From UHGV virus genome UHGV-1367765: a stretch of 50,578 bases of DNA; one strand, 5' to 3'. A program made the position numbers and the translations under genes. This document shows, one piece after another, positions 1 through 21,139 of this stretch. Every line of letters starts with the position of its first letter. Within the stretch, counting starts at the first letter, position 1. The DNA comes from a virus. Below the pieces are notes generated by a model that did no database searches, was not told where the DNA came from, and saw only the letters and a list, made by a program, of their open reading frames with translations.

Positions 1-55
1 AGTCATCGGGCATTATCTGAACATAAAACACTATCAATAAGTTGGAGTCATTACC
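1..55 (+). mobile_element. IS1 right-end terminal fragment (last 55 bp, includes terminal inverted repeat and the insB stop)
   Basis: Sequence AGTCATCGGGCATTATCTGAACATAAAACACTATCAATAAGTTGGAGTCATTACC matches the IS1 right terminus as recalled; element body lies left of the window. Confidence 0.85.
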
Positions 56-511
56 GTTATTATCGGTGCTGCAGGTAAAGGGGGGGGAGCCGGAAGAAAT
101 TCAGGTAGTGAAGGTGGCACAACTTATTTCGGTTCCCTGATAACTGCACCGGGTGGTACAGGCGGTGGCGCGGGGGGAGCATCTGCAAACACATCATATA
201 TTCAGGGTATTTCATGGGGTGCCAGTCCGACATCGTCCGGTACTGTACTAAGAGCATTTCGCTGTAGTGCAAAAACACCAGGTGCAATGGTTATCTCTGT
301 TAAAGCTGTTGCAGGTGGTACCGGGGGGGATACACCACTAGGTTCAGGCGGTATAGGTGGTGCAAGTTCTTCATCATTCAGCGGACGTGGTGGTGGTAAA
401 GCTGAGGGCTTTGGTGCTGGCGGAGGCGGAGCCTGCGCACCTGCCAGAAGTGAGGCTCAATCGGGAGGTGACGGTGCCCCGGGAATAGTTATTGTTGAGG
501 AGTATGCCTGA
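56..511 (+). pseudogene. IS1-truncated side tail fibre gene, Gly-rich C-terminal portion
   Basis: Frame open from the IS1 junction at 56 through the listed ORF 287..511; GxGG-rich repeats typical of lambdoid side tail fibres; no start codon, 5' part removed by IS1. Confidence 0.55.
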
Positions 512-777
512 TGAGTAATTTTGCTCTGATTGAACATGGCGTGGTGAAAAATATTATTATCTGGGATGGAGAGGGTGATTTATTCTCTAACTGCGAAATT
601 ATAAATATTGATCATATAGATGCAGGCGTCGGTTGGTTCTATTCTGACGGAGAGTTTATAGCGCCACCGGAACCGGAAATGACTGAATATGATGTTGGTA
701 ATATCGACGCGGTGATGGAATCAGATACCAGCACCGCGCCGGGGGTTATCTGGCCAGTTCCACCTGAGATGGTTTAA
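511..777 (+). CDS. tail fibre assembly protein (short Tfa-like)
   Basis: ATG overlaps the fibre stop (ATGA) with a GAGGAG RBS; C-terminus [10 protein letters not shown] resembles the Tfa at 14794..15396. Confidence 0.5.
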   Translation: MSNFALIEHGVVKNIIIWDGEGDLFSNCEIINIDHIDAGVGWFYSDGEFIAPPEPEMTEYDVGNIDAVMESDTSTAPGVIWPVPPEMV

Positions 778-943
778 TCTCAATCAGAATGGGTTCGCCC
801 TTCTCGTTAACAGATATTTCCATTCCTTCAGGGATTTCAGATGCAGTAAAAAACCAGTTATCTTCTGGTAATTCCACAGCCCCGGTCACGTCATGAAGAC
901 CGGGGATTACTTCAGTCAAAGTAACAGGATTAAACAGGCGCAC
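746..943 (-). CDS. putative tail fibre assembly chaperone of the opposite-strand fibre cassette (start uncertain)
   Basis: Lies directly after the minus-strand fibre stop at 930; GTG with GGAGAG RBS around 943; the listed ORF start at 1033 would overlap the fibre by about 100 nt. Confidence 0.3.
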
Positions 944-1852
944 AATAAACTCTCCAGGAAAAAGCACTTGTTGATGGTCTTCCGTCGTACATCTGGCAGC
1001 GGACATAAAAACCTGTATTACTGATCTGGTCATCCACGATCATTGAAACGTGAACGTTATTAGGTGTGGCCTCGTAATCTGTTCTTATTCTTTCCGCTAT
1101 GCTGATAAAACGTGAAAGCTTAGGTAGTGCAATTGGATAAACGACTTTAGCCAGCCCATTATCATTGGAACCACCAGTTCCAAATACTTCTATTGCACCA
1201 TCTGACCAGCGTATCCACGCACCATTGGCATTAGCTCCTCGCTGAATGACATATCTGGCTTCTCCCAAACCAAGGTTTTCGAGAGCTGTTTTCACCGTGC
1301 CATCCGATTTGATATCGCCAAACGGATTCTTGCGGCTTAACAGCAGCGCACGAAGCGCGGTAAGCAGCTGGTCGTGCCGCCCCTTCTCCAGGCTGGCACC
1401 GGATGCCTCCACCACGCTGCAAAGCTCCTCCTGCAACATGTCAAAGTAGTCATCATCCAGATCGGTGGCAGGCGTGCCGGTCTGGGGGTTACCACGGGTA
1501 AAACCGTTCTTACCCGCGCCGAACTTATCCTTCTGCGCGGTTTCCAGCCCAGCAGAGTCTTAAAGAGCATCTGCCGGACATCGTCCACCACATCATACGA
1601 AGCAAACTGACCGCGCTCATCACGCCCGTTACTCAGTATGACAACCACGGAGAAGCCCTCTTTCAGCTCCTGCCAGTAGTCGGTCTGGCTTTTGTTTTCT
1701 CCCGGAGAGTCATCACCCGGTACCACATACGCCGCCGGGAGTCTCAGCTTTCCGACCTCCGGCAGATTTTTGAACTGTGCCGCGCCTGCCACCCGGTTTT
1801 CAAAATACGGGCAGCGGGCACGCAGCGCAGCAATAACAGGCGTCAGTTTCAT
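930..1852 (-). pseudogene. tail fibre gene with an apparent frameshift near 1540-1560
   Basis: N-terminal frame (MKLTPVIAALRARCPYFENR...) runs into junk after LLGWKP; the fibre-like sequence with the conserved motif [24 protein letters not shown] continues in another frame to 930. Confidence 0.45.
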
Positions 1853-2355
1853 CTGTGTCGTCGCTCCGGCTTCAGTGATTTACGCAATTCCCGCGCCAGA
1901 AAATAGCGTGTCCAGCTGCGGTTCTTTTCAAGCGTTTCCACCATGAAGTTATTACGTGGAGCCAGTCGCCAGCCGCTGCCACCGGATGCACCACGATGAT
2001 GGCTGCGACGACGCTTTGCCCCTCGCCTCACGCCATAGAACAAAAAAGCCGGATAAAAATCACCGGTGATACGGCGGTTTCCCTCTCCATTACGCTGGTT
2101 AGGGGCTATACGTGCCATAAAACCAGGGCGATGTTTACTGGCTCTGGGTACCATGTAACCAATCGAACGAGCCAGGCGTCCGGTCTGATAACCGGGGTTT
2201 TCACCCGGTGCCGACCGCGCACGGCGCATCACCAGCCGACGGGCATCACGCATATGACGCTGACCAATCGTGACAAACGCCCGCCGGACACGGGCGCGGT
2301 TAAAGCGCATCTCCGCGGGCTGCTGAAAATCAACGTGCAAAAAGGAAGTCGTCAT
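1849..2355 (-). CDS. phage virion morphogenesis protein (Mu G / tail-completion S-like), likely a remnant
   Basis: Arg-rich protein with TGRLARSIGY-type motif resembling the Mu G family; family call from memory. Confidence 0.35.
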   Translation of the reverse strand: MTTSFLHVDFQQPAEMRFNRARVRRAFVTIGQRHMRDARRLVMRRARSAPGENPGYQTGRLARSIGYMVPRASKHRPGFMARIAPNQRNGEGNRRITGDFYPAFLFYGVRRGAKRRRSHHRGASGGSGWRLAPRNNFMVETLEKNRSWTRYFLARELRKSLKPERRHR

Positions 2356-2593
2356 TGTTGCCTCCGTGACTCTGCCTACATTCGCCCAGCTCCGTACACT
2401 CCAGCAGCAGAAAGCGCCGCGCCCCGTTCAGATCGCGCTGACGTTTCATCCGGTAACCGCGCTGATGACGGGATTGTCCTGGCTTGTATTGCTTCCAGCC
2501 TTCGCTTTTGTGGCTTTCACAATAGCCTGACGGGTCTGTGGTGGTATGGCGGCAGCCACGAACACGGCAGGCTTTTGGGATTCGTGATGGCAT
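2330..2593 (-). CDS. small Cys-rich (zinc-ribbon-like) protein
   Basis: Internal ATG (MPSRIPKACRVRGCRH...) preceded by GGAG; CxxxGC...C.SH pattern; function unknown. Confidence 0.3.
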   Translation of the reverse strand: MPSRIPKACRVRGCRHTTTDPSGYCESHKSEGWKQYKPGQSRHQRGYRMKRQRDLNGARRFLLLECTELGECRQSHGGNNDDFLFAR

Positions 2594-2713
2594 ATGTACT
2601 CCAATGAAGAAGCCACCGACATAGCCTCCTCCATTCATCGTGAAACTATTTTCATCTACCCAGTAATGAATTCTTTGTAGAGTTGTGATCAATACAACTC
2701 ACTAATGGAGAGG

Positions 2714-2735
2714 CTTGTCCAACACGTTGGACAAG
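2714..2735. promoter_or_regulatory. perfect 22-bp palindrome CTTGTCCAACACGTTGGACAAG
   Basis: 10-bp arms around a 2-bp centre, about 120 bp upstream of the ATG of the minus-strand ORF 2330..2593; candidate operator. Confidence 0.35.
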
Positions 2736-3118
2736 TTTCCTGTTTGATTTACTGGACACTATAGAAGGACAGAATGCCTTCATCACTCGAATAACATCAA
2801 TTAAGGAGGTTCAACATGTTTCATTCCACAAATCATCAGGCTGTAATTATGGCTGCATCAGCTTGTACCACAGACCTTTTCCGCTTCACTTTGAGCCTGA
2901 TTCATTTCTACCTGACCGGCTCGCCTCTATCTTTTTAATCCCCGCTTTATCCAAATTGCATTGCCAGAATGCCGACAACAGACTGACATTCAAATCCAGA
3001 CTACCTCCAATAGTCTGACCGTACACCTATATAGTTTTAATTTTCATCAATCCATTTAACTATCGTTTAATTGTTGTCACATAGGATTCTGCCGTTTTTA
3101 ACAATGCAGGATAATAAG

Positions 3119-3412
3119 ATGAAAAAAATGTTGTTTTCTGCCGCTCTGGCAATGCTTATTACAGGATGTGCTCAACAGACGTTTACTGTTGGAAACAAAC
3201 CGACAGCAGTAACACCAAAGGAAACCATCACCCATCATTTCTTCGTTTCGGGAATTGGACAGGAGAAAACTGTTGATGCAGCCAAAATTTGTGGCGGCGC
3301 AGAAAATGTGGTTAAAACAGAAACCCAGCAAACATTCGTAAATGGATTGCTCGGTTTTATTACTTTAGGCATTTATACTCCGCTGGAAGCGCGGGTGTAT
3401 TGCTCACAATAA
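3119..3412 (+). CDS. bor: Bor outer-membrane lipoprotein (serum-resistance, lambda Bor / Iss family)
   Basis: MKKML...LITGCAQQTFTV lipobox; near-identical to lambda Bor as recalled; AGGA RBS; opposite strand to the lysis genes as in lambda. Confidence 0.9.
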   Translation: MKKMLFSAALAMLITGCAQQTFTVGNKPTAVTPKETITHHFFVSGIGQEKTVDAAKICGGAENVVKTETQQTFVNGLLGFITLGIYTPLEARVYCSQ

Positions 3413-3424
3413 TTGCATGAGTTG

Positions 3425-3442
3425 CCCATCGATATGGGCAGC
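3425..3442. terminator. hairpin between convergent bor and Rz
   Basis: TGCCCAT-CGAT-ATGGGCA stem-loop between the two stop codons. Confidence 0.3.
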
Positions 3443-3443
3443 G

Positions 3444-3905
3444 CTATCTGCACTGCTCATTAATATACTTCTGGGTTCCTTCCAGTTGTTTTTGCATAGT
3501 GATCAGCCTCTCTCTGAGGGTGAAATAATCCCGTTCAGCGGTGTCTGCCAGTCGGGGGGAGGCTGCATTATCCACGCCGGAGGCGGTGGTGGCTTCACGC
3601 ACTGACTGACAGACTGCTTTGATGTGCAACCGACGACGACCAGCGGCAACATCATCACGCAGAGCATCATTTTCAGCTTTCGCATCAGCTAACTCCTTCG
3701 TGTATTTTGCATCGAGCGCAGCAACATCACGCTGACGCATCTGCATGTCAGTAATTGTCGAGTTCGCCAGCTTCAGTTCTCTGGCATTTTTGTCGCGCTG
3801 GGCTTTGTAGGTAATGGCGTTATCGCGGTAATGATTAACAGCCCATGACAAGCAAACGATGATGCAGATAACCAGAGCGGAAATAATCGCGGTTACTCTG
3901 CTCAT
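3444..3905 (-). CDS. Rz: i-spanin Rz
   Basis: N-terminus [26 protein letters not shown] matches lambda Rz; start overlaps the endolysin stop. Confidence 0.85.
3503..3685 (-). CDS. Rz1: o-spanin Rz1 lipoprotein embedded in Rz
   Basis: Out-of-frame ORF inside Rz with lipobox LVVVGC and a proline-rich segment, as in lambda Rz1. Confidence 0.8.
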
Positions 3906-4378
3906 ACCTCAATCTCTCTGACCGTTCCGCCTGCTTCTTTGAATTTTGCAATCAGGCTGTCAGCCTTATGCTCGAACTGACCATAACCAGCGCCCGGCAG
4001 TGAAGCCCAGATATTGCTGCAACGGTCAATTGCCTGACGAATATCACCGCGATCAATCATCGGTAAAGCGCCACGCTCCTTAATCTGCTGCAATGCCACA
4101 GCATCCTGGCTTTTCGGAGAGAAGTCTTTCAGAGCAAGCTGCTTACGGTAAGCATCCCACCAGCGTGAAAGAAGCTGATAACGTCCGGCGGCTGTTGATT
4201 TGAGTTTGGGGTTTAGCGTGACACGTTTGCGAGGGTGATCGGAGTAATCAGTGAACAGTTCACCACCAACAATAACATCATAACCGTGGTTACGTGTCGG
4301 TTGTCGCCCGTTATCCGTTCCTTCTGACCATGCCACCATATCCAGGAAAGCTTTACGCTGGGAATTTAGTGCCTGCAT
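3902..4378 (-). CDS. R: endolysin R (lambda-type lytic transglycosylase)
   Basis: 158 aa, near-identical over most of its length to lambda R ([19 protein letters not shown]...). Confidence 0.9.
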
Positions 4379-4381
4379 AAA

Positions 4382-4708
4382 TTACTCCTTCGAGCTACCA
4401 AATTTGTTACCGATTACTCGCATTGCAGCCCCACGAATAGCATCGACACCGATCAGCCCCACGCCACCACCAATGGCAACAGAAAGCGATTTAGGCCATC
4501 CGACATACTCAAGAGCGGATGCAAAGGTCAGCGTCAGAGCGCCACATAGCAAAATCTCGAGCGTTTTTCGCTTCCAGCCACCACCACCGCCAAAATAGGC
4601 GATGCGCAAACCAGCCATAACGATCGACATAATCACTGCACCCAGCGGTGTGTCTCCACGCCACCAGCTCTGGACCAAGTCCAGCCAGGTATTTGGGTTA
4701 TGAGGCAT
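4382..4708 (-). CDS. holin (non-lambda type; start taken at internal ATG)
   Basis: Directly upstream of the endolysin; hydrophobic Gly-rich segments; RBS before MPHNPNTW. Confidence 0.55.
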   Translation of the reverse strand: MPHNPNTWLDLVQSWWRGDTPLGAVIMSIVMAGLRIAYFGGGGGWKRKTLEILLCGALTLTFASALEYVGWPKSLSVAIGGGVGLIGVDAIRGAAMRVIGNKFGSSKE

Positions 4709-4751
4709 TTCGTCATCTCTCACCTCGCGATATTTGCGGGTGCTGTGTTGG

Positions 4752-4777
4752 AAATAAAAAGGCCACGCAACGTGGCC
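4752..4777 (-). terminator. Rho-independent terminator between the methyltransferase gene and the holin
   Basis: GGCCACG-caa-CGTGGCC hairpin followed by a T-run on the minus strand. Confidence 0.5.
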
Positions 4778-4784
4778 ACCAGAA

Positions 4785-5837
4785 TTATTTCCCCACCAGT
4801 TCACTTACCTCTTTCACCGTCTGATTAAACCGCTCTGACTCAAGTTCAACACCTAACGCCCGACGCCCCAGCGCCATTGCTGCTTTTATTGTGGAACCGG
4901 ATCCCATAAAGAAATCAGCAACCAGATCACCAGGTCGACTACTGGCATTGATTATTTGCCGGAGCATATCCGCCGGTTTCTCGCACGGATGTTTACCCGG
5001 GTAGAACTGAACGGGCTTATGCGTCCAGACATCGGTATAAGGCACGGAGACTGATACGGAGAAATAGCGCCGGAGAGATTTAAACTCATCCAGCAATTCA
5101 GAATATTTGCGATTCAGTGAATCATAAGATGCCACCAGCTGGTGGTGTGGTTGTTCCAGTTGTTGTTCCTGAAACTTCTCTGCCGCTATACGGGAAAACA
5201 GTGCCTGTAACTTCCGATAGTCAGCCTCATTCGGCAACTGCCACTGACTGGCACCAAACCAGTGGGAAACCATATTTTTCTTACCTGTGGCTTCGGCAAT
5301 TTGTTTTGCCGTTATACCCAGTTCGGCACGAGCATCCCTGAAATACGATATCAGCGGTGCCATTATGTGCTGTTTGAGTTCCCTTTCTTTTGCCGCATAG
5401 CCGTCACTTTTGCCGCGATATGGCCCCTGGTAATGTTCAGCAAACAGAACGCGCTCTGTGGCAGGAAAATATGCGCGCAGACTTTCTTTATTACACCCAT
5501 TCCAACGTCCGGACGGCTTCGCCCAGATGATATGGTTAAGCACGTTGAAACGTTCACGCATCATGATCTCAATATCAGATGCCAGGCGATGCCCACAGAA
5601 CAGGTAAAGGCTTCCGGCAGGTTTTAACACCCGCCAGAACTGGGCCAGACAGTGGTCCAGCCACTTAAGGTAATCTTCGTCCCCTTTCCACTGATTGTCC
5701 CAGCCGTTGGGTTTCACCTTGAAGTACGGCGGATCGGTAACAATCAGGTCAATGGAATCATCAGGCAGGGACTGAATAAAATGCAGGCAATCAGCGTTGA
5801 TTAAATCAACACTGTTTATTTTTACAGTATTTTTCAT
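4785..5837 (-). CDS. DNA methyltransferase (N6-adenine/N4-cytosine class, DPPY motif)
   Basis: DLIVTDPPYF near the N-terminus and FFMGSGST near the C-terminus; no adjacent restriction enzyme. Confidence 0.8.
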   Translation of the reverse strand: MKNTVKINSVDLINADCLHFIQSLPDDSIDLIVTDPPYFKVKPNGWDNQWKGDEDYLKWLDHCLAQFWRVLKPAGSLYLFCGHRLASDIEIMMRERFNVLNHIIWAKPSGRWNGCNKESLRAYFPATERVLFAEHYQGPYRGKSDGYAAKERELKQHIMAPLISYFRDARAELGITAKQIAEATGKKNMVSHWFGASQWQLPNEADYRKLQALFSRIAAEKFQEQQLEQPHHQLVASYDSLNRKYSELLDEFKSLRRYFSVSVSVPYTDVWTHKPVQFYPGKHPCEKPADMLRQIINASSRPGDLVADFFMGSGSTIKAAMALGRRALGVELESERFNQTVKEVSELVGK

Positions 5838-5971
5838 GGATCAGTAAGCGTAACTCTGGTAGGCTCACTCTGCTTTTGCGCTAAAGCAGTGGGCCGTGGT
5901 TCGCTTGTGACCAGTAAGCATGAGCGAATGGCTGGCAGGTGCTACCAACACCCACCAGCCGCCCATTTTCA

Positions 5972-5999
5972 CAAATTAAAAGCCCTTCATTGCTGAAGG
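5972..5999 (-). terminator. terminator-like hairpin overlapping the 3' end of the 72-aa gene
   Basis: CCTTCA-gcaa-TGAAGG stem followed by a T-rich tract on the minus strand. Confidence 0.35.
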
Positions 6000-6205
6000 C
6001 GTCTGTAACAGCCGAACTGGTAATCTGCCAGCCCCGCCATAACCAGCTGGGTCAGTATTAACTGACAGCGTTCGCGTGAAAGGTATGTGTTTTGTGCAAT
6101 CTCCCCGACTGTTGCCGGTTTGCCGTTTAATTCATTAAAAACAACTTTCGCCGTTTCTGTCATATCTAGCTGTTTTAGCATGTTTTTTACCTTCATGGTT
6201 AACAT
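5987..6205 (-). CDS. small hypothetical protein (72 aa), possible winged-helix regulator
   Basis: ATG start; helix-turn-helix-like segment TVGEIAQNTYLSRERCQLILTQL; upstream of the methyltransferase on the same strand. Confidence 0.4.
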   Translation of the reverse strand: MLTMKVKNMLKQLDMTETAKVVFNELNGKPATVGEIAQNTYLSRERCQLILTQLVMAGLADYQFGCYRRLQQ

Positions 6206-6303
6206 GACATACCAATAACTCTTGTCTAAAAAGCCAGCAAGATAAAAAGTCAGTATTCACGACCACCAGCGTGTTTACCGTACTGCACCAGGTTTACAGG
6301 TAC

Positions 6304-6330
6304 AAAAAAACCCGCTCGACGGCGGGTTTA
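6304..6330. terminator. A/T-flanked GC hairpin (bidirectional terminator-like)
   Basis: AAACCCGC-tcgacg-GCGGGTTT with an A-run on one side, in the AT-rich region upstream of nmpC. Confidence 0.3.
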
Positions 6331-6754
6331 AGCTGTGTGGCGAAGTAACCACTCTTAACAGCATAACCAATTTTTTACGTACGTAAACCTCTAAACAATA
6401 TTTGTGAGAATGATATCGAGTGTTCAAAACACCACCACAATCACATAAGGAAAAATAAACAAATAATCATTAAATAATTTCCGACGTTATTTTCAATGAG
6501 TTTAAATTAAAGAGATGATTTATAGAACACTTATTAATAACAACCTTTAATATAATTTAGCTACCAAATTTATTTTCTTTCAGAGAATAGTCATGTACAG
6601 CATGCAATAGAAAAAGTTCAGATAAAAATAGAGATCTAGATCACAATTTAAATAAGAATCTAAAACTTATATCTTGAATTAATCACATTGATTAGATGAA
6701 TATTTGTCGCGCAGGGCATCATTTTTTAATAAATGTTCAAAAAAAGGTCTCACG

Positions 6755-7852
6755 ATGAAAAAATTAACAGTGGCAATTTCTGCTGTAGCTGCATCAGTAC
6801 TGCTGGCGATGTCTGCTCAGGCAGCAGAGATTTATAATAAAGACAGTAACAAGCTGGATCTGTACGGAAAAGTTAATGCTAAGCACTACTTCTCCTCTAA
6901 CGAGGCAGATGATGGTGACACTACTTATGTTCGTCTGGGCTTCAAAGGCGAAACCCAAATCAACGATCAACTGACTGGTTTCGGTCAGTGGGAATACGAA
7001 TTCAAAGGCAACCGTGCTGAATCTCAGGGTTCTTCCAAAGATAAAACCCGTCTTGCCTTCGCTGGTCTGAAATTCGGTGACTACGGCTCCATCGATTATG
7101 GTCGTAACTACGGTGTAGCATACGACATCGGTGCGTGGACTGACGTACTGCCAGAATTCGGTGGTGATACCTGGACTCAAACCGACGTATTCATGACTCA
7201 GCGTGCAACTGGTGTTGCAACTTACCGTAATAACGACTTCTTTGGTCTGGTTGATGGCCTGAACTTTGCTGCTCAGTATCAGGGCAAAAATGACCGTAAC
7301 GATTTCGAGAACTACACCGAAGGTAACGGTGATGGCTTCGGTTTCTCTGCTACCTATGAATACGAAGGATTCGGCATTGGTGCGACCTATGCAAAATCTG
7401 ATCGTACCGACACTCAAGTCAATGCAGGGAAAGTTCTTCCTGAAGTATTTGCTTCCGGTAAAAATGCAGAAGTTTGGGCTGCAGGTCTGAAATATGACGC
7501 TAACAACATTTACCTGGCCACTACCTATTCTGAAACCCAGAATATGACGGTGTTTGCTGATCACTTCATTGCTAATAAAGCACAGAACTTCGAAGCTGTT
7601 GCACAATATCAGTTCGATTTCGGTCTGCGTCCGTCCGTTGCTTACCTGCATTCTAAAGGAAAAGACTTGGGTGTTTGGGGTGATCAGGACCTGGTTGAAT
7701 ATGTTGATGTAGGTGCAACTTATTACTTCAACAAAAACATGTCTACTTTCGTTGATTACAAAATCAACCTGCTTGACAAAAATGACTTCACTAAAGCACT
7801 CGGTGTAAGCACTGACAACATCGTTGCTGTAGGATTGGTTTACCAGTTCTAA
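6755..7852 (+). CDS. nmpC: outer-membrane porin, NmpC/Lc (OmpC/OmpF/PhoE family), apparently intact
   Basis: 365 aa with signal peptide [23 protein letters not shown] and porin motifs; near-identical to E. coli NmpC as recalled; sits between Q and the lysis genes on the opposite strand, as in DLP12. Confidence 0.9.
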
Positions 7853-7876
7853 TCTGGTTACTAAAAGATATGTTGC

Positions 7877-7893
7877 GGGAGGCGTTGCCTCCC
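7877..7893. terminator. hairpin just downstream of nmpC
   Basis: GGGAGGC-gtt-GCCTCCC stem-loop about 25 nt after the nmpC stop. Confidence 0.35.
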
Positions 7894-7987
7894 CAACATA
7901 TAAGTGGCTCCCTCAAGCCACTTCCTTTAGAAGCACTACCTTGCTTCTGACTATATAAACCTTCTGTTATATATTACCCTTTATTTT

Positions 7988-8015
7988 GGGGGCGTTGACA
8001 CGCCCCATTTTTAAT
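7988..8015 (+). terminator. Rho-independent terminator downstream of nmpC
   Basis: GGGGCG-ttgaca-CGCCCC followed by ATTTTTAATAAAAT. Confidence 0.5.
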
Positions 8016-8039
8016 AAAATTAAGTGAACAATTAGCGTA

Positions 8040-8423
8040 TCAATTGGACTTCGTAACAACGATATCCATCTCTAACCGGATATCTAATGCCATTAACATT
8101 CCTTCAATTATTCCCTCAGCCTTCTGTAACTTTTTCCCGATATAACCATCAGAGCAACAATGCTTGCTTGCAAGTGACATGAATGTCATACCGCCGACAT
8201 AATAATCCACTAGTAAATCATGCAAATCGCTGTTGTTCTTTTTCAGACGGGCCATACATCCGCAAACGATCATCGCGTCATCATCACAACATTGCGGACG
8301 GGATTTTACTTTTGAAGGAAGTACCCCCTTAAAACCAGCAGCAATGGACGACCAGGTCACATCCTCACGGTTATTAGCTGCCCATGCCCCCCAACGCTCA
8401 AGAACCATCTGAATATCACGCAT
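8040..8423 (-). CDS. late-gene antiterminator Q (phage 82 / QuuD type)
   Basis: [18 protein letters not shown]... matches the Q82 family; cysteine cluster; the listed TTG start is 5 codons upstream of this ATG. Confidence 0.8.
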
Positions 8424-8440
8424 CAACTTTCTCCACAAAA

Positions 8441-9436
8441 TCAGGCCAGCACGCCAGTTGCCAGCGCACGATCGATAAAACGAAATATCAACTCCAGCTG
8501 GGAGCCATACTTCTCTTCAAATGCCGCGGTATCCGCATGCAGCTCGTCGTGATGCTTTCTGCACAAAGGCAATACAAAGAGGTCATGCGCTTTTGTACCC
8601 ATTCCGCCCTGACCGTGGCCTATCAGGTGGTGGGGATCATCAGCAGGCTTTCCACAACATGCACACGGCTGTGTCTTAACCCAGCGCGTGTACTTTTCGT
8701 TAACCCAGCGGCGACGTTTTGGGCGTAACATAAAAGACTCCGGCGACTCCGGATCCACTTTCAGCGCCAGCACCTTTTTCACTTTATCCTGGATGATGCT
8801 GGTGGCAGGAACCGAAGGAACAAGGTCACTTTCCCGGGTGACAGACGGCACAACAGGCTTCGGTAATCTCAGTGCCTTACGGGCTGCACTTTCCGGCAAG
8901 GCTCCCGCCAGGTCATTACGAACCAGCCACCAGCACAGTTCCGGCATTGTCACAACGTGACTGTCATCAAAACCGAGATCCCGACGCACAACAGACAACA
9001 CCCAGCGGGCACAGTTATCCGTTGCCATTGATTCCAGCCGTTCCGTGAACTGATCGCGCAGCTGGTTATCGCAGTGCCAGCACAGACGGATTGCACCCGG
9101 CGCGTGTCGCATTGTGGTCATGTTCTCGCTGTGCCAGTCGGAATGAGGCCACTGGCAGCCTTTTTCACGAAGTAACCAGCTTTCAAGACATTCCACGCCA
9201 CCAGCACGACGGATCACTGCCTCATTGCGGAACACGGCCCGAACGGCAGGATCATCCGCCAGCGGTTGTGATGCCGCCGGAACAGCACCACTGGCGAAAG
9301 ATGAATAACGTTCCGGCTCAGGCTCCAGCAGGACACGCCCCTGCATAAACAGGGGCATCAGCTCTGAACCTGGTCTGAACAATACGATCCCCATACGCGG
9401 GGCAATTTCAGGGGTCAGTAGTGCTCTCACGGTCAC
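8441..9436 (-). CDS. prophage protein with Cys/His-rich zinc-binding C-terminus (DUF968-like)
   Basis: CACCGKP...[10 protein letters not shown]...CRKHHDELH motifs; GTG start; family from memory. Confidence 0.45.
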
Positions 9437-9437
9437 C

Positions 9438-10235
9438 TCAATGAACGATATCGAGCAGCTTTAACAGCTCAGGGAATCGGGATTCGAAGAAATGCGGCTG
9501 CGTCTCGCGCGGATTTGCGGGACTGGTGATGTTCTTGCCGAACATGCAGCCTTTCGCTGTCAGCGACCAGAATTTTTTGATGTTGTTAATCGTGGTACGG
9601 CTGTATCGTTCGCGCTGCTCGACGATCCCCAGCTTCACCATCTGGTGATATGCCTGATTAGCCGTCAGGCGTATACCATACTGTTTCAGCAGTGCACTCA
9701 GTGACAGTGTCGGGCGACTTGAGCCATCGTGTGCATCAGCAGGAGCATCAATGGCATAGCGCGGTGCCAGATTCGGTAAGCCAACAGCCTCCTGGAGTTT
9801 CTGACAGGCTCCAAGCACTGAAGAGTTAGACAGGTTTAATTCCCGGCGCATAAAGTCCAGCAGAATCACACCAGCCTGCATCTTGTCAGCAGCCTGTCCG
9901 GATAATTTTTCCGGTGCGCTGGTTACCATATCGAAAGTACGGATCACCTTCAGATGGAATGACGGGCTGATCCACATTGCATAGGCATACACCAGTTCTT
10001 TGCAGACATACGTCCCCTGGTTATTTCCGCCACGAATAACGTTAACTGGCTCTATATTGACCGAGTTGCAAATCTGCAACTCGCTTATTAAACGTTCAGT
10101 TTGCTCATTGCGGAGCCAGAATGCAGGCTTATGCTTATCCAGAGAACCGGCAGCCCTGTGCAGATCGTTCAGGCTGTAACGCCCATAAGCATCACGACGA
10201 ACTTCAATACCATCAATGACCATCAGATTATTCAT
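9438..10235 (-). CDS. KilA-N domain protein
   Basis: N-terminus MNNLMVIDGIEVRRDAYGRYSLNDLHRAAG is KilA-N-like; GAGGAG RBS before this internal ATG. Confidence 0.6.
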   Translation of the reverse strand: MNNLMVIDGIEVRRDAYGRYSLNDLHRAAGSLDKHKPAFWLRNEQTERLISELQICNSVNIEPVNVIRGGNNQGTYVCKELVYAYAMWISPSFHLKVIRTFDMVTSAPEKLSGQAADKMQAGVILLDFMRRELNLSNSSVLGACQKLQEAVGLPNLAPRYAIDAPADAHDGSSRPTLSLSALLKQYGIRLTANQAYHQMVKLGIVEQRERYSRTTINNIKKFWSLTAKGCMFGKNITSPANPRETQPHFFESRFPELLKLLDIVH

Positions 10236-10254
10236 ACTTCGTTTCTCCTCTTGA

Positions 10255-10644
10255 TCAGGCGGCTGCACCCGCCGTTTTCTCGTACTTACTGATAGTGATC
10301 TCGATCTTCCCTCCCGGGATAACCGGTCCCCACTCAACCAGCATTCTTTTCACCTGACTGTCGTCTTCCCACACACCCGCGTGGGTCAGGGCGTCAAACA
10401 GCGCCTTGTTATAGTTGTCCAGATCGCGGATCCGGTTATCCGGAGGAAACAACACGATCTCCACTGAAGCAGGTGCCGACGTTGGTTTCGGCAGGCGACG
10501 TAACTGCTCAACTATTGCTGCGCACGCCGCGCTCTGGAATTTGCGCCCCGCTGCGCTTATCAGACTCTTACCAGCAAACGCCCCTTTGTTGGGGTGTCGC
10601 CAGTACGTGTTCACGCTGGGCGGGAAAGGCAAGATCAGCTTCAT
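10255..10644 (-). CDS. rusA: Holliday-junction resolvase RusA
   Basis: PPSVNTYW and RDLDNYNKALFDAL motifs of the RusA family. Confidence 0.8.
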   Translation of the reverse strand: MKLILPFPPSVNTYWRHPNKGAFAGKSLISAAGRKFQSAACAAIVEQLRRLPKPTSAPASVEIVLFPPDNRIRDLDNYNKALFDALTHAGVWEDDSQVKRMLVEWGPVIPGGKIEITISKYEKTAGAAA

Positions 10645-10967
10645 ACTTTCAGGCCCCTCTCATGTAACCAGTGGGCTGCACGCAGCCTGCCGTTTTCCTC
10701 ACCGGCAAGCAGTGCGCGGATAATCCCGACCGCCTCGCTGTCGTCGTCCTTCACCGCGGTATGAAGCGTTATCCCCCGGGCCACGCCACGCTTTATCGTG
10801 ATGACGCCTTTTTTCTCCAGTGCACGAAGATGCTCTACCGCTGCATTCACTGAACGGTATCCCAGCATGGTTGCCACCTCCTGATTGGTTGGCGGAAAGC
10901 CACGCTCTTTCTGGTAAGAAATCAGCATATCCAGCACCTGCTGCTGGCATTGAGTTAACGTCGTCAT
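10641..10967 (-). CDS. LexA-like winged-helix DNA-binding protein without a peptidase domain
   Basis: TQCQQQVLDMLISYQKERGFPPTNQEVATMLGYRSVNAAVEHLRALEKKGVI resembles the LexA N-terminal domain; stop overlaps the rusA start (ATGA). Confidence 0.55.
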   Translation of the reverse strand: MTTLTQCQQQVLDMLISYQKERGFPPTNQEVATMLGYRSVNAAVEHLRALEKKGVITIKRGVARGITLHTAVKDDDSEAVGIIRALLAGEENGRLRAAHWLHERGLKV

Positions 10968-11455
10968 TACGCCCCCACGTAATTCCCTGACAGATACCAC
11001 TCATCACTCGATACAGCGCGCTTGCTGCTTTTCCGTAAACACTGCTCACGACGCGCCAGAAAATTGTTTCGTTCTGGCTGGGAGTGGCTTTCACGGAATG
11101 CCGCCATCCACACCGTTGCAGCACGACGGTATAAGCCCCTGGACTCCAGTTCTTCTGACTGGCGGGTCAGGCACAAAATCTCCCGCGGGTCGTTAGTGCC
11201 GACATAGAAATTGCGCACAGGTCTGGTTTCACGAACTGGTTGCGGTTCCGGTTCCTGCGCTCTCTCAGTCAGGCGCGGGAAATGTCTGCGTGTATCTCCT
11301 TCACAACGGTGAGCCACACGCCCACTCTGACGTAACTTGCTTGCTGACTGCAGAACGCGCTGCCGTGAGTAACCTGCAAAAGCATCCGCAATGTCTCCGG
11401 AAGTACATCCCGGATGGGCTTCAATGAATTTCTGAACTTCATTCAAAAGACTCAT
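10967..11455 (-). CDS. PerC-family transcriptional regulator-like protein
   Basis: C-terminal LESRGLYRRAATVWMAAF...RREQCL resembles the PerC motif; translationally coupled (TAATG) to the LexA-like gene. Confidence 0.5.
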   Translation of the reverse strand: MSLLNEVQKFIEAHPGCTSGDIADAFAGYSRQRVLQSASKLRQSGRVAHRCEGDTRRHFPRLTERAQEPEPQPVRETRPVRNFYVGTNDPREILCLTRQSEELESRGLYRRAATVWMAAFRESHSQPERNNFLARREQCLRKSSKRAVSSDEWYLSGNYVGA

Positions 11456-11457
11456 GA

Positions 11458-12180
11458 TCACCCCCTGAATCCTGCCGGGATCTGGCTGTAGTCCACGTTG
11501 TCGTAACTGGATTTGAAGTACGGGTCTTCGCGTTTTTCGGTGTACGTGCTGACGGACGGTGATAAGCGCAGGGAAAGCTCATCCCATTTTTCCCGCAACT
11601 TCGACGGGCTGAGCACGTTACGGCACCAGAACGGATCGCGGCTGACGCGGCTGTACATCTCGCAGATTTGTTTGTGAGTACGACCATCCTGCACACACAT
11701 CAGGCGAATTTCGTTTGCCCAGGCTGTCCAGTTCGGTTCTTTGGGACGAACCACCTCGCCGTCACATTCGGCGGCTTGCTCGTACAGGGCGATGATTTTT
11801 TTCCAGAGCCACTGTGCGCAGGTCAAATCATCCTGCGTTCCCCACTGGCGCTTTTTAGGGCTGAATACAACCGCATCAGGATGGCGAGTTAAAAAATCCT
11901 GTTCATCCGTCTGCGTGTCCGGTTGCGAAGCGTCCGGACGAGAAGGTTTTTTATCTGACGGATCATGTTTTGATTTTACTGACGGATCCCCGCCAGATTC
12001 TGACGGGTGAAAACCCGCTTTTTTGCCAGATTTCGACGCATCAAATTTTGACGGGTCAGATTTTGATGCGTCAGATTTTGACGGGTCAGAATCTGACAGT
12101 TGAGAAAATGCCGCTGCCTGAAGCTTCGCAACGTTAAGCTGATAAACATTCGACGCATTGCGGTTATCGGAGTTACGCAA
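11458..12180 (-). pseudogene. 5'-truncated replication-initiator (O-like) remnant with a repeat-encoded Asp/Ser/Lys-rich segment
   Basis: No in-frame ATG near the 5' end (listed start is TTG); iteron-like DNA repeats encode DPSKSDASKSDPSKFDASKS; abuts a divergent plus-strand gene. Confidence 0.35.
11950..12105. repeat. iteron-like direct repeats (about 8 copies of TTTTGACGGGTCAGA-like units)
   Basis: Visible tandem units, each with a small TGAC..GTCA dyad, at roughly 16-17 bp spacing. Confidence 0.5.
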
Positions 12181-12543
12181 ATGCGCATGAATGTTTTCGA
12201 AATGGAAGGGTTTCTTCGTGGGAGATGTGTACCGCGAGATCTGAAAGTGAATGAAACAGATGCTGAATACCTGGTGCGTAAATTCGATGCGCTTGAAGCT
12301 AAATGTGCAGCACAGGAAAACAAAGTAATACCAGTGTCAACTGAACTGCCACCAGCAAATGAAAGTGTTTTGTTATTCGATGCTAACGGAGAAGGCTGGC
12401 TAATTGGCTGGCGTTCTCTCTGGTACACCTGGGGACAAAAAGAAACCGGAGAATGGCAGTGGACATTTCAGGTCGGGAGCCTTGAAAACGTCAATATCAC
12501 TCACTGGGCAGTAATGCCAAAAGCACCGGAGGCTGGAGCATAA
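12181..12543 (+). CDS. DUF551-like prophage protein
   Basis: ATG with GGAG RBS; Trp-rich C-terminus ending NITHWAVMPKAP resembles the DUF551 signature. Confidence 0.45.
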   Translation: MRMNVFEMEGFLRGRCVPRDLKVNETDAEYLVRKFDALEAKCAAQENKVIPVSTELPPANESVLLFDANGEGWLIGWRSLWYTWGQKETGEWQWTFQVGSLENVNITHWAVMPKAPEAGA

Positions 12544-12848
12544 TGACCACTTTTACCGACAAAGAACTGATTAAAGAAATTAAAGAGCGTATCAGCAGCC
12601 TTGACGTGCGAGACGATATTGAGCGCCGTGCTTATGAAATCGCACTCCTATCTCTGGAAGTAGAACCAGATGAACGCGAAGCTTATGAATTATTCATGGA
12701 AAAGCGTTTCGGTGACTTAGTAGATCGTCGGAGAGCAAAAAACGGCGATAACGAATACATGGCATGGGATATGACTCTCGGTTGGATCGTCTGGCAGCAA
12801 CGAGCAGGTATCCATTTTTCAACAATGTCACAACAAGAGGTGAAATAA
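12543..12848 (+). CDS. hypothetical protein (101 aa)
   Basis: ATG overlaps the upstream stop (TAATG); continuous with xis and int on the same strand. Confidence 0.45.
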   Translation: MTTFTDKELIKEIKERISSLDVRDDIERRAYEIALLSLEVEPDEREAYELFMEKRFGDLVDRRRAKNGDNEYMAWDMTLGWIVWQQRAGIHFSTMSQQEVK

Positions 12849-13198
12849 TGGAGCCATACAGCCTCACACTCGATGAGGCCTGTCATTTTCTTAAGATATC
12901 CAGACCGACTGCCATTAACTGGATACGCACAGGGCGTCTTCAGGCAACACGCAAAGATCCCACTAAGAATAAATCTCCTTACCTCACAACACGACAAGCC
13001 TGCATTGCGGCTCTTCAGTCTCCGCTGCATACTGTCCAGGTGAGCGCGGGTGATGGCATAACAGAGGAAAGAAAATGTCACTCTTCCGCAGAGGTGAAAT
13101 ATGGTACGCCAGTTTCACATTGCCGAACGGTAAAAGATTTAAACAGTCTCTTGGAACAAAGGACAAAAGGCAGGCGACAGAACTCCATGACAAGCTAA
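12848..13198 (+). CDS. xis: excisionase-like DNA-binding protein
   Basis: HTH-like N-terminus ([26 protein letters not shown]); immediately upstream of and overlapping int. Confidence 0.5.
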
Positions 13199-14238
13199 AG
13201 GCTGAAGCATGGCGGGTCAGCAAACTTGGTGAAATACCTGATATAACGTTCGAGGAAGCGTGTGTCAGGTGGCTTGAAGAGAAAGCACATAAAAAATCAC
13301 TGGACGATGACAAAAGCCGGATCGGATTCTGGCTTCAACATTTCGCAGGAATGCAACTAAGAGACATTACTGAATCAAAAATTTATTCAGCAATGCAGAA
13401 AATGACGAACCGGCGTCATGAGGAAAACTGGAAACTCAGGGCAGAAGCATGCAGAAAAAAAGGGAAACCTGTTCCAGAATACACGCCAAAACCAGCGTCC
13501 GTTGCAACGAAGGCTACGCATCTTTCATTTATAAAGGCCCTACTAAGAGCCGCAGAGCGTGAATGGAAAATGCTGGATAAGGCACCAATTATTAAAGTGC
13601 CTCAACCAAAGAATAAACGGATCCGCTGGCTGGAGCCCCATGAAGCACAAAGGCTGATTGATGAATGTCCGGAGCCATTAAAGTCTGTTGTTGAATTTGC
13701 ACTGGCAACAGGCTTAAGACGCTCGAACATCATCAACCTTGAATGGCAACAAATAGACATGCAGCGCCGGGTGGCATGGATAAACCCGGAAGAGAGTAAA
13801 TCAAACCGCGCAATTGGCGTTGCGCTGAATGATACTGCATGTCGCGTTTTGAAAAAACAAATCGGGAATCATCACCGTTGGGTATTTGTGTACAAGGAAA
13901 GCTGTACCAAACCAGACGGAACGAAAGCGCCAACAGTAAGGAAGATGCGGTATGACGCAAACACAGCCTGGAAAGCGGCGCTGAGACGGGCTGGTATTGA
14001 TGATTTCAGATTTCACGACTTGAGACACACCTGGGCAAGTTGGCTGGTTCAAGCCGGAGTCCCGTTGTCAGTGTTACAGGAAATGGGAGGCTGGGAGTCT
14101 ATCGAAATGGTTCGTCGATATGCTCACCTTGCACCTAATCACCTTACCGAACACGCACGGCAAATAGACTCGATCCTGAACCCATCGGTCCCAAATTTGT
14201 CCCAGTCAAAAAATAAGGAAGGTACTAATGATGTGTAA
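13075..14238 (+). CDS. int: tyrosine integrase (lambdoid Int family)
   Basis: 387 aa with the R..HxxR..Y catalytic pattern ([10 protein letters not shown]...VRRYAH); very similar to E. coli lambdoid prophage integrases as recalled; 3' end faces the att core. Confidence 0.9.
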
Positions 14239-14252
14239 CTTATTGATTTAAA

Positions 14253-14298
14253 TGGTGCCGATAATAGGAGTCGAACCTACGACCTTCGCATTACGAAT
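14253..14298 (-). other. att core: 46-nt copy of the 3' end of tRNA-Thr (thrW-type), not a complete tRNA
   Basis: Minus strand reads ...ATTCGTAATGCGAAGGTCGTAGGTTCGACTCCTATTATCGGCACCA; similarity to the tRNA stops upstream of this; 14 bp after the int stop. Confidence 0.7.
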
Positions 14299-14460
14299 CT
14301 GTAGCACCAATCATAACTATCTGTTTTAGCAAGCATTAACCGCATTCACTAAGCTATAGTTGATGGCACAAACAGAAAGCTGATGCATGATGTTGTCATG
14401 TGTATGTCACAAATACGGCACAACGATCTTCAAACATGTAGCCACACATCCACAGAAGAG

Positions 14461-14494
14461 CACAAAGCCTTGCAATCCAGTGCAAAGCTTTGTG
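14461..14494. other. extended imperfect hairpin in the inter-prophage junction
   Basis: CACAAAGC-C-TTGCA-atccag-TGCAA-A-GCTTTGTG nested inverted repeats followed by a T-rich tract. Confidence 0.3.
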
Positions 14495-14793
14495 CGCCTC
14501 AGTTTTGTCTAAGCGTTCTACTGAAAACATAGTAAAATCGGTAACTGCTGGAAATCATTCACTACTCGCACTATCGAAAGTTCGCCAGCCAGCCGCAGCA
14601 CGTTCTTGCATACGGCGTGTCTGCGGTTTCATTCATCTCCGACCGGAAACTTCTTATACAAAGTCGATACGCCAACATCATAGATGATCACCACCTTCTG
14701 GCGAGAAACTCCTGATGCAATATAATTTGTGGCTGGATTATCTGGACGCACTGGAACTGGTTGATACCTCCAGTGCTCCAGATATTGAATGGC

Positions 14794-15396
14794 CTACGCC
14801 TCCAGCAGTTCAGGCCAGATGACATCCGGCGCGGTGCTGGTATCTGTTGCCGTCACCGCGTCAATGTAATCCAGCACGGCGTTAAGTCGGGTTGTTTCTG
14901 CCTGCGTCAACTTCCGTCCGGCCTGTAATTTCAGCTGAATCAGACTAATGGAAGCCATTGCTGCATCAATCAGTGACTGGCGCTGTGCTTCTGCCGCTTC
15001 TACTGCGGCGCTATGCTGTGCCTCGGTATCCGTCACCCATTTCTCGCCATCCCATTGATCATATGGCGTGGATGGTGCTGCGGTGGTTGTTCCTTCCGGG
15101 TATTCTCCCAACTGTGAAACTTTCACAGGATTGCCAGTGGTGGTGCTGTAAACCGTTTCGCCGCGATGGTCTGGCACATATTCCCATGATTTTAAATCCA
15201 CAGAGCGGCAAATTGTATAACCATCCTTATATGCACCAGGGGCGTCTAAACAGGAATGCGCAGGGATACCGACACCAATGGCAAGATATTCATTTGAAGA
15301 GGAAATATATTCCCGAGTTTCACCATCATAGTTATAAACAGTAATATCCCCTGCCTTCGTAGCAATAAACTCGCTATTTAATACAGCGTTATCCAT
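14794..15396 (-). CDS. tail fibre assembly protein (Tfa)
   Basis: 200 aa, C-terminus ...DTSTAPDVIWPELLEA typical of TfaE/TfaQ-type chaperones; directly after the tail fibre gene. Confidence 0.7.
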   Translation of the reverse strand: MDNAVLNSEFIATKAGDITVYNYDGETREYISSSNEYLAIGVGIPAHSCLDAPGAYKDGYTICRSVDLKSWEYVPDHRGETVYSTTTGNPVKVSQLGEYPEGTTTAAPSTPYDQWDGEKWVTDTEAQHSAAVEAAEAQRQSLIDAAMASISLIQLKLQAGRKLTQAETTRLNAVLDYIDAVTATDTSTAPDVIWPELLEA

Positions 15397-19181: not shown

Positions 19182-19192
19182 AAAAACCCCAT

Positions 19193-19216
19193 AAAAAAAC
19201 CAGCCGAAGCTGGTTT
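19193..19216 (-). terminator. Rho-independent terminator (minus strand) just upstream of the spike gene
   Basis: CCAGC-cgaa-GCTGG hairpin followed by a run of 7 T on the minus strand. Confidence 0.45.
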
Positions 19217-19403
19217 GGTATCAATTATCTCTTAGTAACTAAGCTACATCAGTGTGAAGTAAGGCTTTTCCGCTGCAATGGCACATATTCACAAGGTGTA
19301 TTAGGATATATTTGCAACAAGTAAGCATTAAAAATCAATTTCAGCCATGAAGCCGCCATAGAGTGGACCTGCACCATCGCATTCTTGACTACAGGAGTAA
19401 CAA

Positions 19404-19694: not shown

Positions 19695-19699
19695 CGCAT

Positions 19700-20071: not shown

Positions 20072-20072
20072 C

Positions 20073-21137: not shown

Positions 21138-21139
21138 TT

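What the first reader, a model, noticed from the sequence alone, without database searches (positions are those of the whole stretch)
1..55. Window bounded by two IS1 ends in inverted orientation, each cutting a prophage gene
Positions 1-55 and 50524-50578 are exact reverse complements and match the IS1 right terminus. Both copies present that end to the interior. The left copy truncates a tail-fibre gene, the right copy truncates an early gene and removes the int end of prophage B. Inverted IS1 copies can invert the intervening 50 kb by homologous recombination, and the interruptions make both prophages unable to excise normally.
Basis: seen in the sequence. Interest (0 to 1): 0.5.

Follow-up and report, generated by a model that had tools for sequence, protein, structure and literature searches.

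The report
Contig ending in two IS1 copies
The window is a short-read contig that stops at each end 55 bases inside a copy of the common insertion sequence IS1; the two IS1/prophage junctions are real, but this is ordinary and nothing shows that any prophage DNA was removed or inverted.

Summary
Window 1-55 and 50524-50578 are exact reverse complements (56 nt with one chance base) and are identical to the last 55 nt of E. coli K-12 IS1A. Both IS1 right ends face inward, so two inverted IS1 copies are implied. The left junction cuts a glycine-rich tail-fibre cassette, of which 151 codons remain. The right junction cuts a DUF5405 early gene 18 nt before its end.

The symmetric bounding is technical. 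An independent public assembly of the same locus (50,678 bp, 1 mismatch in 11,852) also stops inside IS1, but 104 nt in. No public contig spans either IS1. The window is therefore a whole contig broken at a collapsed multicopy repeat, and 55 nt is probably the assembler's k-mer overlap.

The interior is a tandem prophage array at the thrW att site. Prophage A is a remnant already disabled by three internal deletions. Prophage B looks near-complete, and its xis/int end should lie beyond the right IS1.

The claims that the int end was removed and that IS1 blocks excision are not supported, because the data simply end. Inversion between inverted IS copies is textbook and cannot be detected from such data. 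This is ordinary, already-known biology.

The parts
1..55 (+). Right end of an IS1 copy (IS1A positions 714-768). It contains the insB C-terminus and stop (2-40) and the 23-bp right inverted repeat (33-55). The element body lies off the window to the left.
   Evidence: 100% identical to annotated K-12 IS1A. The sibling contig extends the identity to 104 nt.
50524..50578 (-). Right end of a second IS1 copy in inverted orientation. The element body lies off the window to the right.
   Evidence: Exact reverse complement of 1-55. The predicted 117-aa DUF5405/IS1 read-through protein needs 84 nt or more of IS1 and exists on the 50,678-bp sibling contig.
56..511 (+). 3' 456 nt (151 codons and stop) of a glycine-rich tail-fibre C-terminal cassette, cut by the left IS1. 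The adjacent 9-mer GTTATTATC (56-64) would be the target duplication if this is a simple insertion.
   Evidence: 99.7% identical to L001 6001-6457, the end of a 580-codon tail-fibre gene, and 98% identical to L017, where it is a promoterless cassette next to a Pin-type recombinase.
511..1543 (.). Rest of the invertible tail-fibre segment. It holds small tail/assembly ORFs (511-777 +, 746-1033 -), the opposite-strand fibre cassette (930-1543 -) and a cix/pix-like crossover site at 1260.
   Evidence: Contiguous match to NZ_CP062811 (H1/L017) through window 1543. Crossover-like 26-mer found.
1538..14298 (.). Prophage A remnant of the thrW/proA-site type. It carries a tail-terminator fragment, HNH, Bor/Iss (3071-3412), lysis genes, a DNA methyltransferase, a porin (6704-7852), Q, early genes and an integrase (13075-14238). 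It lacks the tail, head/terminase and immunity modules.
   Evidence: 94-99.8% identical in three blocks to the E. coli 5735 prophage (L003), with L003 4918-11620 and 21332-25125 missing. Pfam hits.
14253..14298 (-). The 3' 46 nt of tRNA-Thr thrW. This is the att core separating prophage A from prophage B. It is a partial tRNA and occurs only once in the window.
   Evidence: Alignment to the annotated thrW in L003. ARAGORN finds no complete tRNA here.
14299..50523 (.). Prophage B, a lambdoid phage with a contractile tail. On the minus strand: tail-fibre assembly/fibre (14794-16229), baseplate, tape measure (22049-24130), sheath (25188-26348), major head (28486-29427), portal, terminase (33285-35464), lysis, tRNA-Thr/Asn (38259-38414), nin/Q and DnaB-like helicase (42275-43726). 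On the plus strand: repressor (45491-46123), N (46986-47312), Erf (48902-49537) and anti-RecBCD (49944-50240). There is no xis or int in the window.
   Evidence: PHROG and Pfam hits. Annotated homologue L002. Phage matches.
50251..50523 (+). DUF5405 early gene (start at 50251 or 50260), cut by the right IS1 18 nt before its natural end. It reads on into IS1 for 26 codons, and the stop lies 29 nt beyond the window.
   Evidence: The exact 117-aa fusion is present in a public assembly.

Best explanation
The window is a complete contig from a short-read (probably metagenome) assembly. It covers most of a tandem prophage array integrated at the thrW tRNA-Thr site of an E. coli-like chromosome. Two copies of IS1 sit in this array in inverted orientation. 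One is in the tail-fibre cassette at the outer end of the degraded prophage A. The other is in the DUF5405 gene of the leftward early operon of prophage B. IS1 is multicopy, so the assembler could not pass through either copy. It ended the contig one k-mer (55 nt) into each, which produces the perfectly symmetric inverted termini.

Shown: the identity of the termini with IS1, their orientation, the two breakpoints in phage genes, and that independent assemblies also stop inside IS1.

Inferred: both IS1 copies are full length. Each is most likely a simple insertion with an 8-9 bp target duplication, so the 5' part of the fibre cassette lies just beyond the left copy. B's remaining early genes, xis, int, thrW and proA then lie just beyond the right copy. 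On this reading nothing has been removed. Like any inverted IS pair, the two copies could recombine and flip the interval, but there is no evidence that this has happened.
For: The termini equal IS1A 714-768 at 100%, with chance expectation 0.

Homology to uninterrupted genes starts and stops exactly at the IS1 ends. All best left hits begin at query base 55, and all best right hits end at window 50524.

The sibling contig ENA ERZ27294074 k119_28834 is 50,678 bp and shows 1 mismatch in 11,852 nt. It carries 104 nt of IS1 at the left end. It also encodes the predicted 117-aa DUF5405/IS1 read-through protein, so it holds at least 84 nt of IS1 at the right end.

No contig carrying the lineage-specific proteins is longer than 50,678 bp. 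A k=31 Logan contig of the same lineage breaks at two internal repeats of the window. Contig ends therefore track repeats.

The 55-nt IS1 end matches a median of 10 places per complete E. coli genome.

The interior is collinear with normal prophage gene order, and a thrW att core lies between A and B. A relative of B has its int next to thrW-proA (L008).

IS1 is 768 bp and makes 8-9 bp duplications (PMC12428005). IS1 is among the most active IS in E. coli and tends to hop locally (PMC5009759). Multicopy IS complicate short-read assembly, and contigs end next to them (PMC4558774).

From my own knowledge, 55 is the largest default k of SPAdes/metaSPAdes for short reads.
Against: Neither IS1 body nor any sequence beyond it was seen.

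The partner junction expected for a simple insertion (fibre 5' part, then GTTATTATC, then the IS1 left end) was not found among public proteins. This is weak evidence, because that piece would sit on a very short contig between IS1 and the nearby crossover-site repeat.

The assembler and k of the source are unknown, so '55 = k' is an inference. The sibling's 104 nt is not simply its k of 119.

None of 5,426 complete E. coli genomes, the GTDB species representatives or the JGI metagenomes contains either junction. The arrangement outside therefore cannot be read from a relative.
Confidence: 0.7

Rival explanations
1. The two junctions are products of an IS1-mediated rearrangement and not of two simple insertions. 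The event could be an adjacent deletion, a duplicative (replicative intramolecular) inversion, or IS1 x IS1 homologous recombination. In that case the 50.5-kb interval is now inverted or its former neighbours are lost. This could include prophage B's int end.
For: The copies are inverted, which is the geometry produced by duplicative inversion and required for recombinational inversion (PMC5009759; PMC4471558 for the replicative mechanism in IS26). The partner junction with a 9-bp duplication was not found. IS1 causes many deletions in E. coli (PMC5009759). Prophage A shows that this region has lost DNA repeatedly.
Against: There is no positive evidence. The three deletions in prophage A have 2-6 nt microhomology junctions and no IS1. 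An inversion creates no new IS-flank junction, so it cannot be seen in these data (PMC5009759). The failure to find the partner junction is explained by expected contig fragmentation.
Confidence: 0.22
2. The two IS1 copies and the interval form a giant compound transposon (IS1, two prophages, IS1) that moved, or can move, as one unit.
For: Two inverted IS1 copies with their left ends outward have the architecture of an IS1 compound transposon. IS1-flanked phage-sized DNA has been reported to transpose (Rosner and Guyer 1980, seen only as reference 67 of PMC12428005, and not read).
Against: The inner junctions cut phage genes whose missing parts are expected just outside, as for in-situ insertions. 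The interval contains a thrW att core, which shows that the array was built in place by site-specific integration. The unit was not found at any other locus or in any other genome. The outer ends and any flanking duplication are unseen.
Confidence: 0.03
3. The termini are isolated IS1 end fragments or an assembly chimera, and not the edges of complete IS1 elements in one genome.
For: Only 55 nt are present in the window, and 104 nt and at least 84 nt in the sibling contig.
Against: An independent assembly from another sample gives the same contig with the same two junctions. The contig enters IS1 without branching at the junction, so the IS1-bearing allele is the dominant one. Identity to IS1A is perfect over everything visible. 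Complete IS1 copies are near-universal in E. coli.
Confidence: 0.05

Closest known systems
IS1 (IS1 family; IS1A/IS1E consensus of E. coli K-12)
   Same: The terminal 55 nt in the window, and 104 nt in the sibling contig, are identical to the IS1A right end. This includes the insB stop and the right inverted repeat. The insertions lie in non-essential prophage DNA.
   Different: Only the ends are visible. Full length, insA/insB' and target duplications could not be examined.
Contig breaks at multicopy insertion sequences in short-read de Bruijn assemblies (the problem addressed by ISMapper, PMC4558774)
   Same: The contig stops a fixed short distance inside the repeat at both ends. Other assemblies of the locus stop in the same element at other depths. 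A k=31 assembly also breaks at shorter internal repeats.
   Different: The assembler and k-mer size of the source are not known. The 56th matching base is coincidental.
Recombination between inverted IS copies producing chromosomal inversions (E. coli mutation-accumulation lines, PMC5009759; long-term evolution experiment, PMC4173774; Shigella, PMC8072062)
   Same: Two inverted copies of the same IS lie about 50.5 kb apart on one replicon. This is the substrate for such inversions.
   Different: No inversion is demonstrated, and only one arrangement of the inner junctions is seen. That arrangement is the same in either orientation.
IS1 compound transposons (Tn9 with direct IS1 copies; Tn1681 with inverted IS1 copies, the latter from my own knowledge)
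   Same: A segment is bracketed by two IS1 copies, here inverted as in Tn1681.
   Different: The segment is about 50 kb of prophage DNA. There is no selectable cargo known to travel with it, no second location, and no flanking duplication seen.

Membership tests
IS1 insertion sequence | Terminal inverted repeat and adjacent sequence of IS1 (right end GGTAATGACTCCAACTTATTGAT...) | tested here: met
   Window 1-55 and the reverse complement of 50524-50578 are 100% identical to IS1A 714-768. The sibling contig shows 104 of 104 nt.
IS1 insertion sequence | Complete element of about 768 bp with insA, insB and the insAB' frameshift | not testable with these tools
   The window ends 55 nt into each copy. 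Only the last 12 insB codons are present. No public contig spans the elements.
IS1 insertion sequence | 8-9 bp direct duplication of the target at both ends of the element | tested here: inconclusive
   The inner 9-mers are GTTATTATC and GACCAGTTC. A search for the partner junction protein (fibre 5' part, duplication, IS1 left end) found none, but the partner contig may be too short to have been kept.
IS1 insertion sequence | Multicopy in the host genome, which is what makes an assembler stop | tested here: inconclusive
   The 55-mer hits a median of 10 places per complete E. coli genome. The copy number in the source genome itself is unknown.
IS-bounded invertible segment (recombination between inverted IS copies) | Two copies of the same IS in inverted orientation on one molecule | tested here: met
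   Both ends of one contig present the same IS1 end, so the two copies must be inverted. A single IS1 on a circle would present opposite ends.
IS-bounded invertible segment (recombination between inverted IS copies) | Both orientations, or an orientation differing from relatives, observed | not testable with these tools
   This needs reads longer than IS1. Short-read data give no signal (PMC5009759).
IS1 compound transposon | The same IS-cargo-IS unit at more than one genomic location, or flanked as a whole by a target duplication | tested here: not met
   Neither junction occurs in 5,426 complete E. coli genomes, the GTDB representatives or the JGI metagenomes. It is known only from sibling contigs of identical extent. 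The outer flanks are unseen.
Tandem prophages at the thrW tRNA-Thr attachment site | Integrase followed by the 3' part of thrW at the prophage boundary, with a second prophage starting immediately after | tested here: met
   The integrase is at 13075-14238 (Pfam PF00589). The 46 nt of thrW 3' end lie at 14253-14298 and the prophage B tail genes follow. The expected second complete thrW beyond prophage B's int lies outside the window.

The most novel reading that the evidence does not exclude
The inverted IS1 pair might work as a functional unit. In one version it is a recombinational switch, or the product of an IS1 duplicative inversion. Either would flip 50.5 kb of tandem prophage DNA, uncouple prophage B's xis-int-att end from the rest of the phage and lock the phage in. 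In the other version the whole IS1-prophages-IS1 block is a mobile compound transposon carrying two prophages.
Probability: 0.05. Interest if true: 0.3.

Novelty: already known. Interest (0 to 1): 0.07.

Why it matters
It matters mainly as a caution. Symmetric inverted termini that match a known IS at the ends of a contig-sized window mark where an assembler gave up. They are not a biological boundary, and gene loss beyond them should not be inferred.

Biologically this is one more case of IS1 inserting into dispensable prophage DNA of an E. coli-like genome. If long reads later showed the interval flipping, it would be a small example of IS-mediated prophage domestication, which is already documented in E. 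coli and Shigella.

Tried and rejected
(1) Chance or low-complexity match. Rejected: 0 expected, and 55/55 identity to IS1A.

(2) A circular element with a single IS1. Rejected: both ends of the contig show the same (right) IS1 end, whereas a single copy would show opposite ends.

(3) Direct look-up of contigs encoding the junction-specific DUF5405/IS1 fusion. This was replaced by an exact-sequence look-up, which found the fusion on one 50,678-bp contig.

(4) Search for the partner junction (fibre 5' part, 9-bp duplication, IS1 left end). The exact look-up was absent. A homology search returned five short fibre fragments, none with an IS1-derived tail. One of them (P0007, contig L018) breaks at the same spot, but it continues into another tail-fibre/assembly cassette on the opposite strand and not into an IS.

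(5) Exact scans for both junctions in GTDB species representatives and JGI metagenomes. These gave 0 hits in 4 scans.

(6) My first reading of window 56-1278 as a piece of a P2-like prophage. Revised: the match to NZ_CP062811 continues to window 1543 and places the segment in the invertible fibre cassette of a Mu-like-tail prophage, the tail type of prophage A's relatives.

(7) NCBIfam gave no names for the small ORFs near the ends.

Full report
OBSERVATION.
The first 55 bases and the last 55 bases of the window are exact reverse complements. The repeat finder reports arms 1-56 and 50523-50578, 56 nt, 100% complementary. The 55-mer occurs exactly twice, once per strand, with zero expected in shuffles.

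Both copies are identical to positions 714-768 of the annotated 768-bp IS1A of E. coli K-12 MG1655. This stretch holds the last 12 codons and stop of insB (window 2-40) and the right terminal inverted repeat (33-55). The 56th matching base is phage DNA on both sides and is a 1-in-4 coincidence. No other IS1 sequence lies in the window.

WHAT THE TWO JUNCTIONS CUT.
Against 5,426 complete E. coli genomes, every good match to the left 2.5 kb starts at query base 55. Every good match to the right 2.5 kb stops at window 50524. Homology to uninterrupted genes therefore ends exactly at the IS1 termini.

On the left, window 56-511 is 99.7% identical to the last 456 nt of a 580-codon glycine-rich tail-fibre gene (L001). 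The break follows codon 429. In another genome (NZ_CP062811, L017) the match runs on to window 1543. There the same sequence is the promoterless alternative cassette of an invertible tail-fibre segment, next to a Pin-type recombinase, at the end of a Mu-like tail module. The window shares that wider context, so the IS1 probably sits in a silent fibre cassette.

On the right, the gene starting at 50251/50260 is a DUF5405 early gene (Pfam 25.7 bits against a cut-off of 21.6). It is annotated as such in L002. It has lost its last 5 codons and stop, and it reads 26 codons into IS1.

WHY THE WINDOW IS BOUNDED BY IS1.
A protein that spans a lineage-specific deletion junction (1337-1852) is found on a public contig, ENA ERZ27294074 k119_28834, of 50,678 bp. 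That is 100 bp longer than the window. Over 11,852 overlapping bases it differs from the window at one position, and it carries 104 nt of IS1 at this end, all identical to IS1A.

The 117-aa DUF5405/IS1 read-through protein that I predicted from the window plus the IS1A sequence exists in the public protein collection, on exactly one contig of 50,678 bp. The sibling contig therefore also runs at least 84 nt into IS1 on the right.

No contig carrying these lineage markers is longer. A k=31 Logan contig of the same lineage (L005) covers only window 1253-3912 and ends at two internal repeats of the window. The IS1 55-mer hits a median of 10 places per E. coli genome.

Together these results show that contig ends here are set by repeats and by the assembler. 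The window is a whole contig that stops one overlap length inside a collapsed multicopy IS1 at both ends. From my own knowledge, 55 is the largest default k-mer of SPAdes/metaSPAdes, and 'k119_' is MEGAHIT's naming style. These two points are inferences, not results. That multicopy IS break short-read assemblies and that contigs end adjacent to them is the premise of ISMapper (PMC4558774).

WHAT LIES BETWEEN.
- Window 56-1543 is the tail-fibre invertible-segment fragment described above.
- Window 1538-14298 is a remnant of a prophage of the kind integrated at thrW next to proA in E. coli 5735 (L003). Relative to that prophage, the window lacks the sheath-to-baseplate genes (junction at 1538-1543), L003 4918-11620 (head closure to terminase; junction at 2454-2455) and L003 21332-25125 (immunity region; junction at 12163-12166). 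Each junction has 2-6 nt of microhomology and no IS1.
- The remnant keeps Bor/Iss, lysis genes, a methyltransferase, a porin, Q and an intact integrase at 13075-14238.
- Immediately after the integrase come the 3' 46 nt of thrW (14253-14298). This is a partial tRNA present only once in the window.
- Prophage B then begins with its tail-fibre end and runs through baseplate, tape measure, sheath, head, portal, terminase, lysis, nin/Q, replication, repressor, N, Erf and anti-RecBCD to DUF5405.

This is the layout of two phages integrated in tandem at thrW. In relatives, 1-6 kb of early genes, xis and int follow DUF5405. In one relative (L008) the int abuts thrW-proA. The simplest expectation is therefore that B's int end, a complete thrW and proA lie just beyond the right-hand IS1.

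MECHANISM AND WHAT CAN BE CLAIMED.
Both ends of one linear contig attach to the same end of IS1. The genome must therefore hold two IS1 copies (or at least two right-end-bearing pieces) in inverted orientation about 50.5 kb apart. A single IS1 on a circle would show opposite ends.

IS1 is 768 bp and duplicates 8-9 bp of target (PMC12428005). It is one of the most active IS in E. coli and favours nearby targets (PMC5009759). Two independent or local-hop insertions into dispensable prophage DNA are thus the default reading.

Recombination between inverted IS copies inverts the interval. [quoted passage not shown] For the same reason this window cannot say whether the interval is in its original orientation. 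A duplicative inversion, or insertion followed by recombination, would leave identical inner junctions.

The claim that IS1 stops both prophages from excising also fails. Prophage A is defective because of its own deletions, and a fibre-cassette insertion is irrelevant to excision. Prophage B's fate depends on unseen DNA.

ATTEMPTS TO SEE BEYOND THE IS1 COPIES.

I searched for the partner junction expected from a simple insertion: the fibre 5' part, GTTATTATC and the IS1 left end, which would read ...NVIIGDAANLLI*. It is not in the collection by exact look-up. A homology search returned only five short fibre fragments, none with an IS1 tail.

One of these fragments, on a 733-bp E. coli contig (L018), breaks within 0-5 nt of the same spot. 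It continues into a different tail-fibre/assembly cassette on the other strand and not into an IS. I record it as an unexplained coincidence.

Exact scans for both junctions in GTDB species representatives and JGI metagenomes found nothing. The negative partner search is weak evidence. The missing piece would lie between IS1 and the crossover-site repeat roughly 250 bp away, giving a contig too short to be kept or annotated.

COMPARISON WITH KNOWN SYSTEMS AND VERDICT.
The termini pass the sequence test for IS1. Full length and target duplication could not be tested. The inverted-pair geometry is that of known IS-mediated inversion substrates (PMC5009759, PMC4173774, PMC8072062) and of IS1 compound transposons. 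There is no sign of inversion or of movement as a unit, and the unit occurs nowhere else.

The finding is real but ordinary. It consists of IS1 insertions in prophage DNA plus a repeat-limited assembly. Interest is low and the novelty class is 'already known'. The most novel reading not excluded is a functional IS1-bounded flip or a giant compound transposon carrying the prophage array. I put that at about 5%, with modest interest even if true.

Noticed in passing
window 1538-1543, 2454-2455, 12163-12166: Prophage A is a remnant with three deletion junctions relative to the E. coli 5735 thrW prophage. The tail module, the head/terminase module and the immunity region are lost. Each junction has 2-6 nt of microhomology and no IS. 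The 171-aa ORF 1337-1852 is a tail-terminator fragment fused out of frame to tail-fibre DNA, and it serves as a lineage marker.
   Followed up: partly
window 14253-14298: The 3' 46 nt of tRNA-Thr thrW lie between the prophage A integrase and the prophage B tail end. This is the att core of a tandem prophage array. The complete thrW expected after prophage B is outside the window.
   Followed up: partly
L018 (GCA_053564695.1 JBRQGX010000051.1) 228-232; corresponds to window 60-64: In an unrelated E. coli draft genome the same tail-fibre cassette is broken within 0-5 nt of the end of GTTATTATC, the 9-mer abutting IS1 here. It is joined to another tail-fibre/assembly cassette on the opposite strand. 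This could be coincidence, a recombination hotspot or an assembly join.
   Followed up: partly
window 80-87 (also 172-177, 323-329): There is a G8 run (plus G6 and G7 runs) inside the glycine-rich tail-fibre cassette. Three database proteins from other E. coli (P0005, P0006, P0009) are frameshifted immediately after the first run. This suggests slippage-prone tracts or homopolymer sequencing errors.
   Followed up: no
window 3789-4088 and 37120-37419; 1259-1337 and 15860-15938: A 300-nt 96% direct repeat links the lysis regions of prophages A and B. A 79-nt 97% direct repeat in the two tail-fibre genes contains a cix/pix-like crossover site (TTCTCCCAAACCAAGGTTTTCGAGAG at 1260 and 15861). Both are substrates for deletion between the prophages, and both are where a k=31 assembly breaks.
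   Followed up: partly
window 38259-38414: Prophage B carries tRNA-Thr(TGT) and tRNA-Asn(GTT) genes downstream of its lysis/Q region.
   Followed up: no
window 44111-44217 and 12027-12101: Five overlapping copies of an 11-nt unit (TGGACAACCGT) lie inside the replication-initiator gene of prophage B and are likely origin iterons. Four to five 15-nt repeats (CAGATTTTGACGGGT-like) lie in the prophage A early region.
   Followed up: no
window 3071-3412, 4785-5837, 6704-7852: Prophage A remnant cargo: a Bor/Iss-family lipoprotein, a DNA methyltransferase and an OmpC/NmpC-like porin. All are retained despite loss of the structural genes.
   Followed up: no
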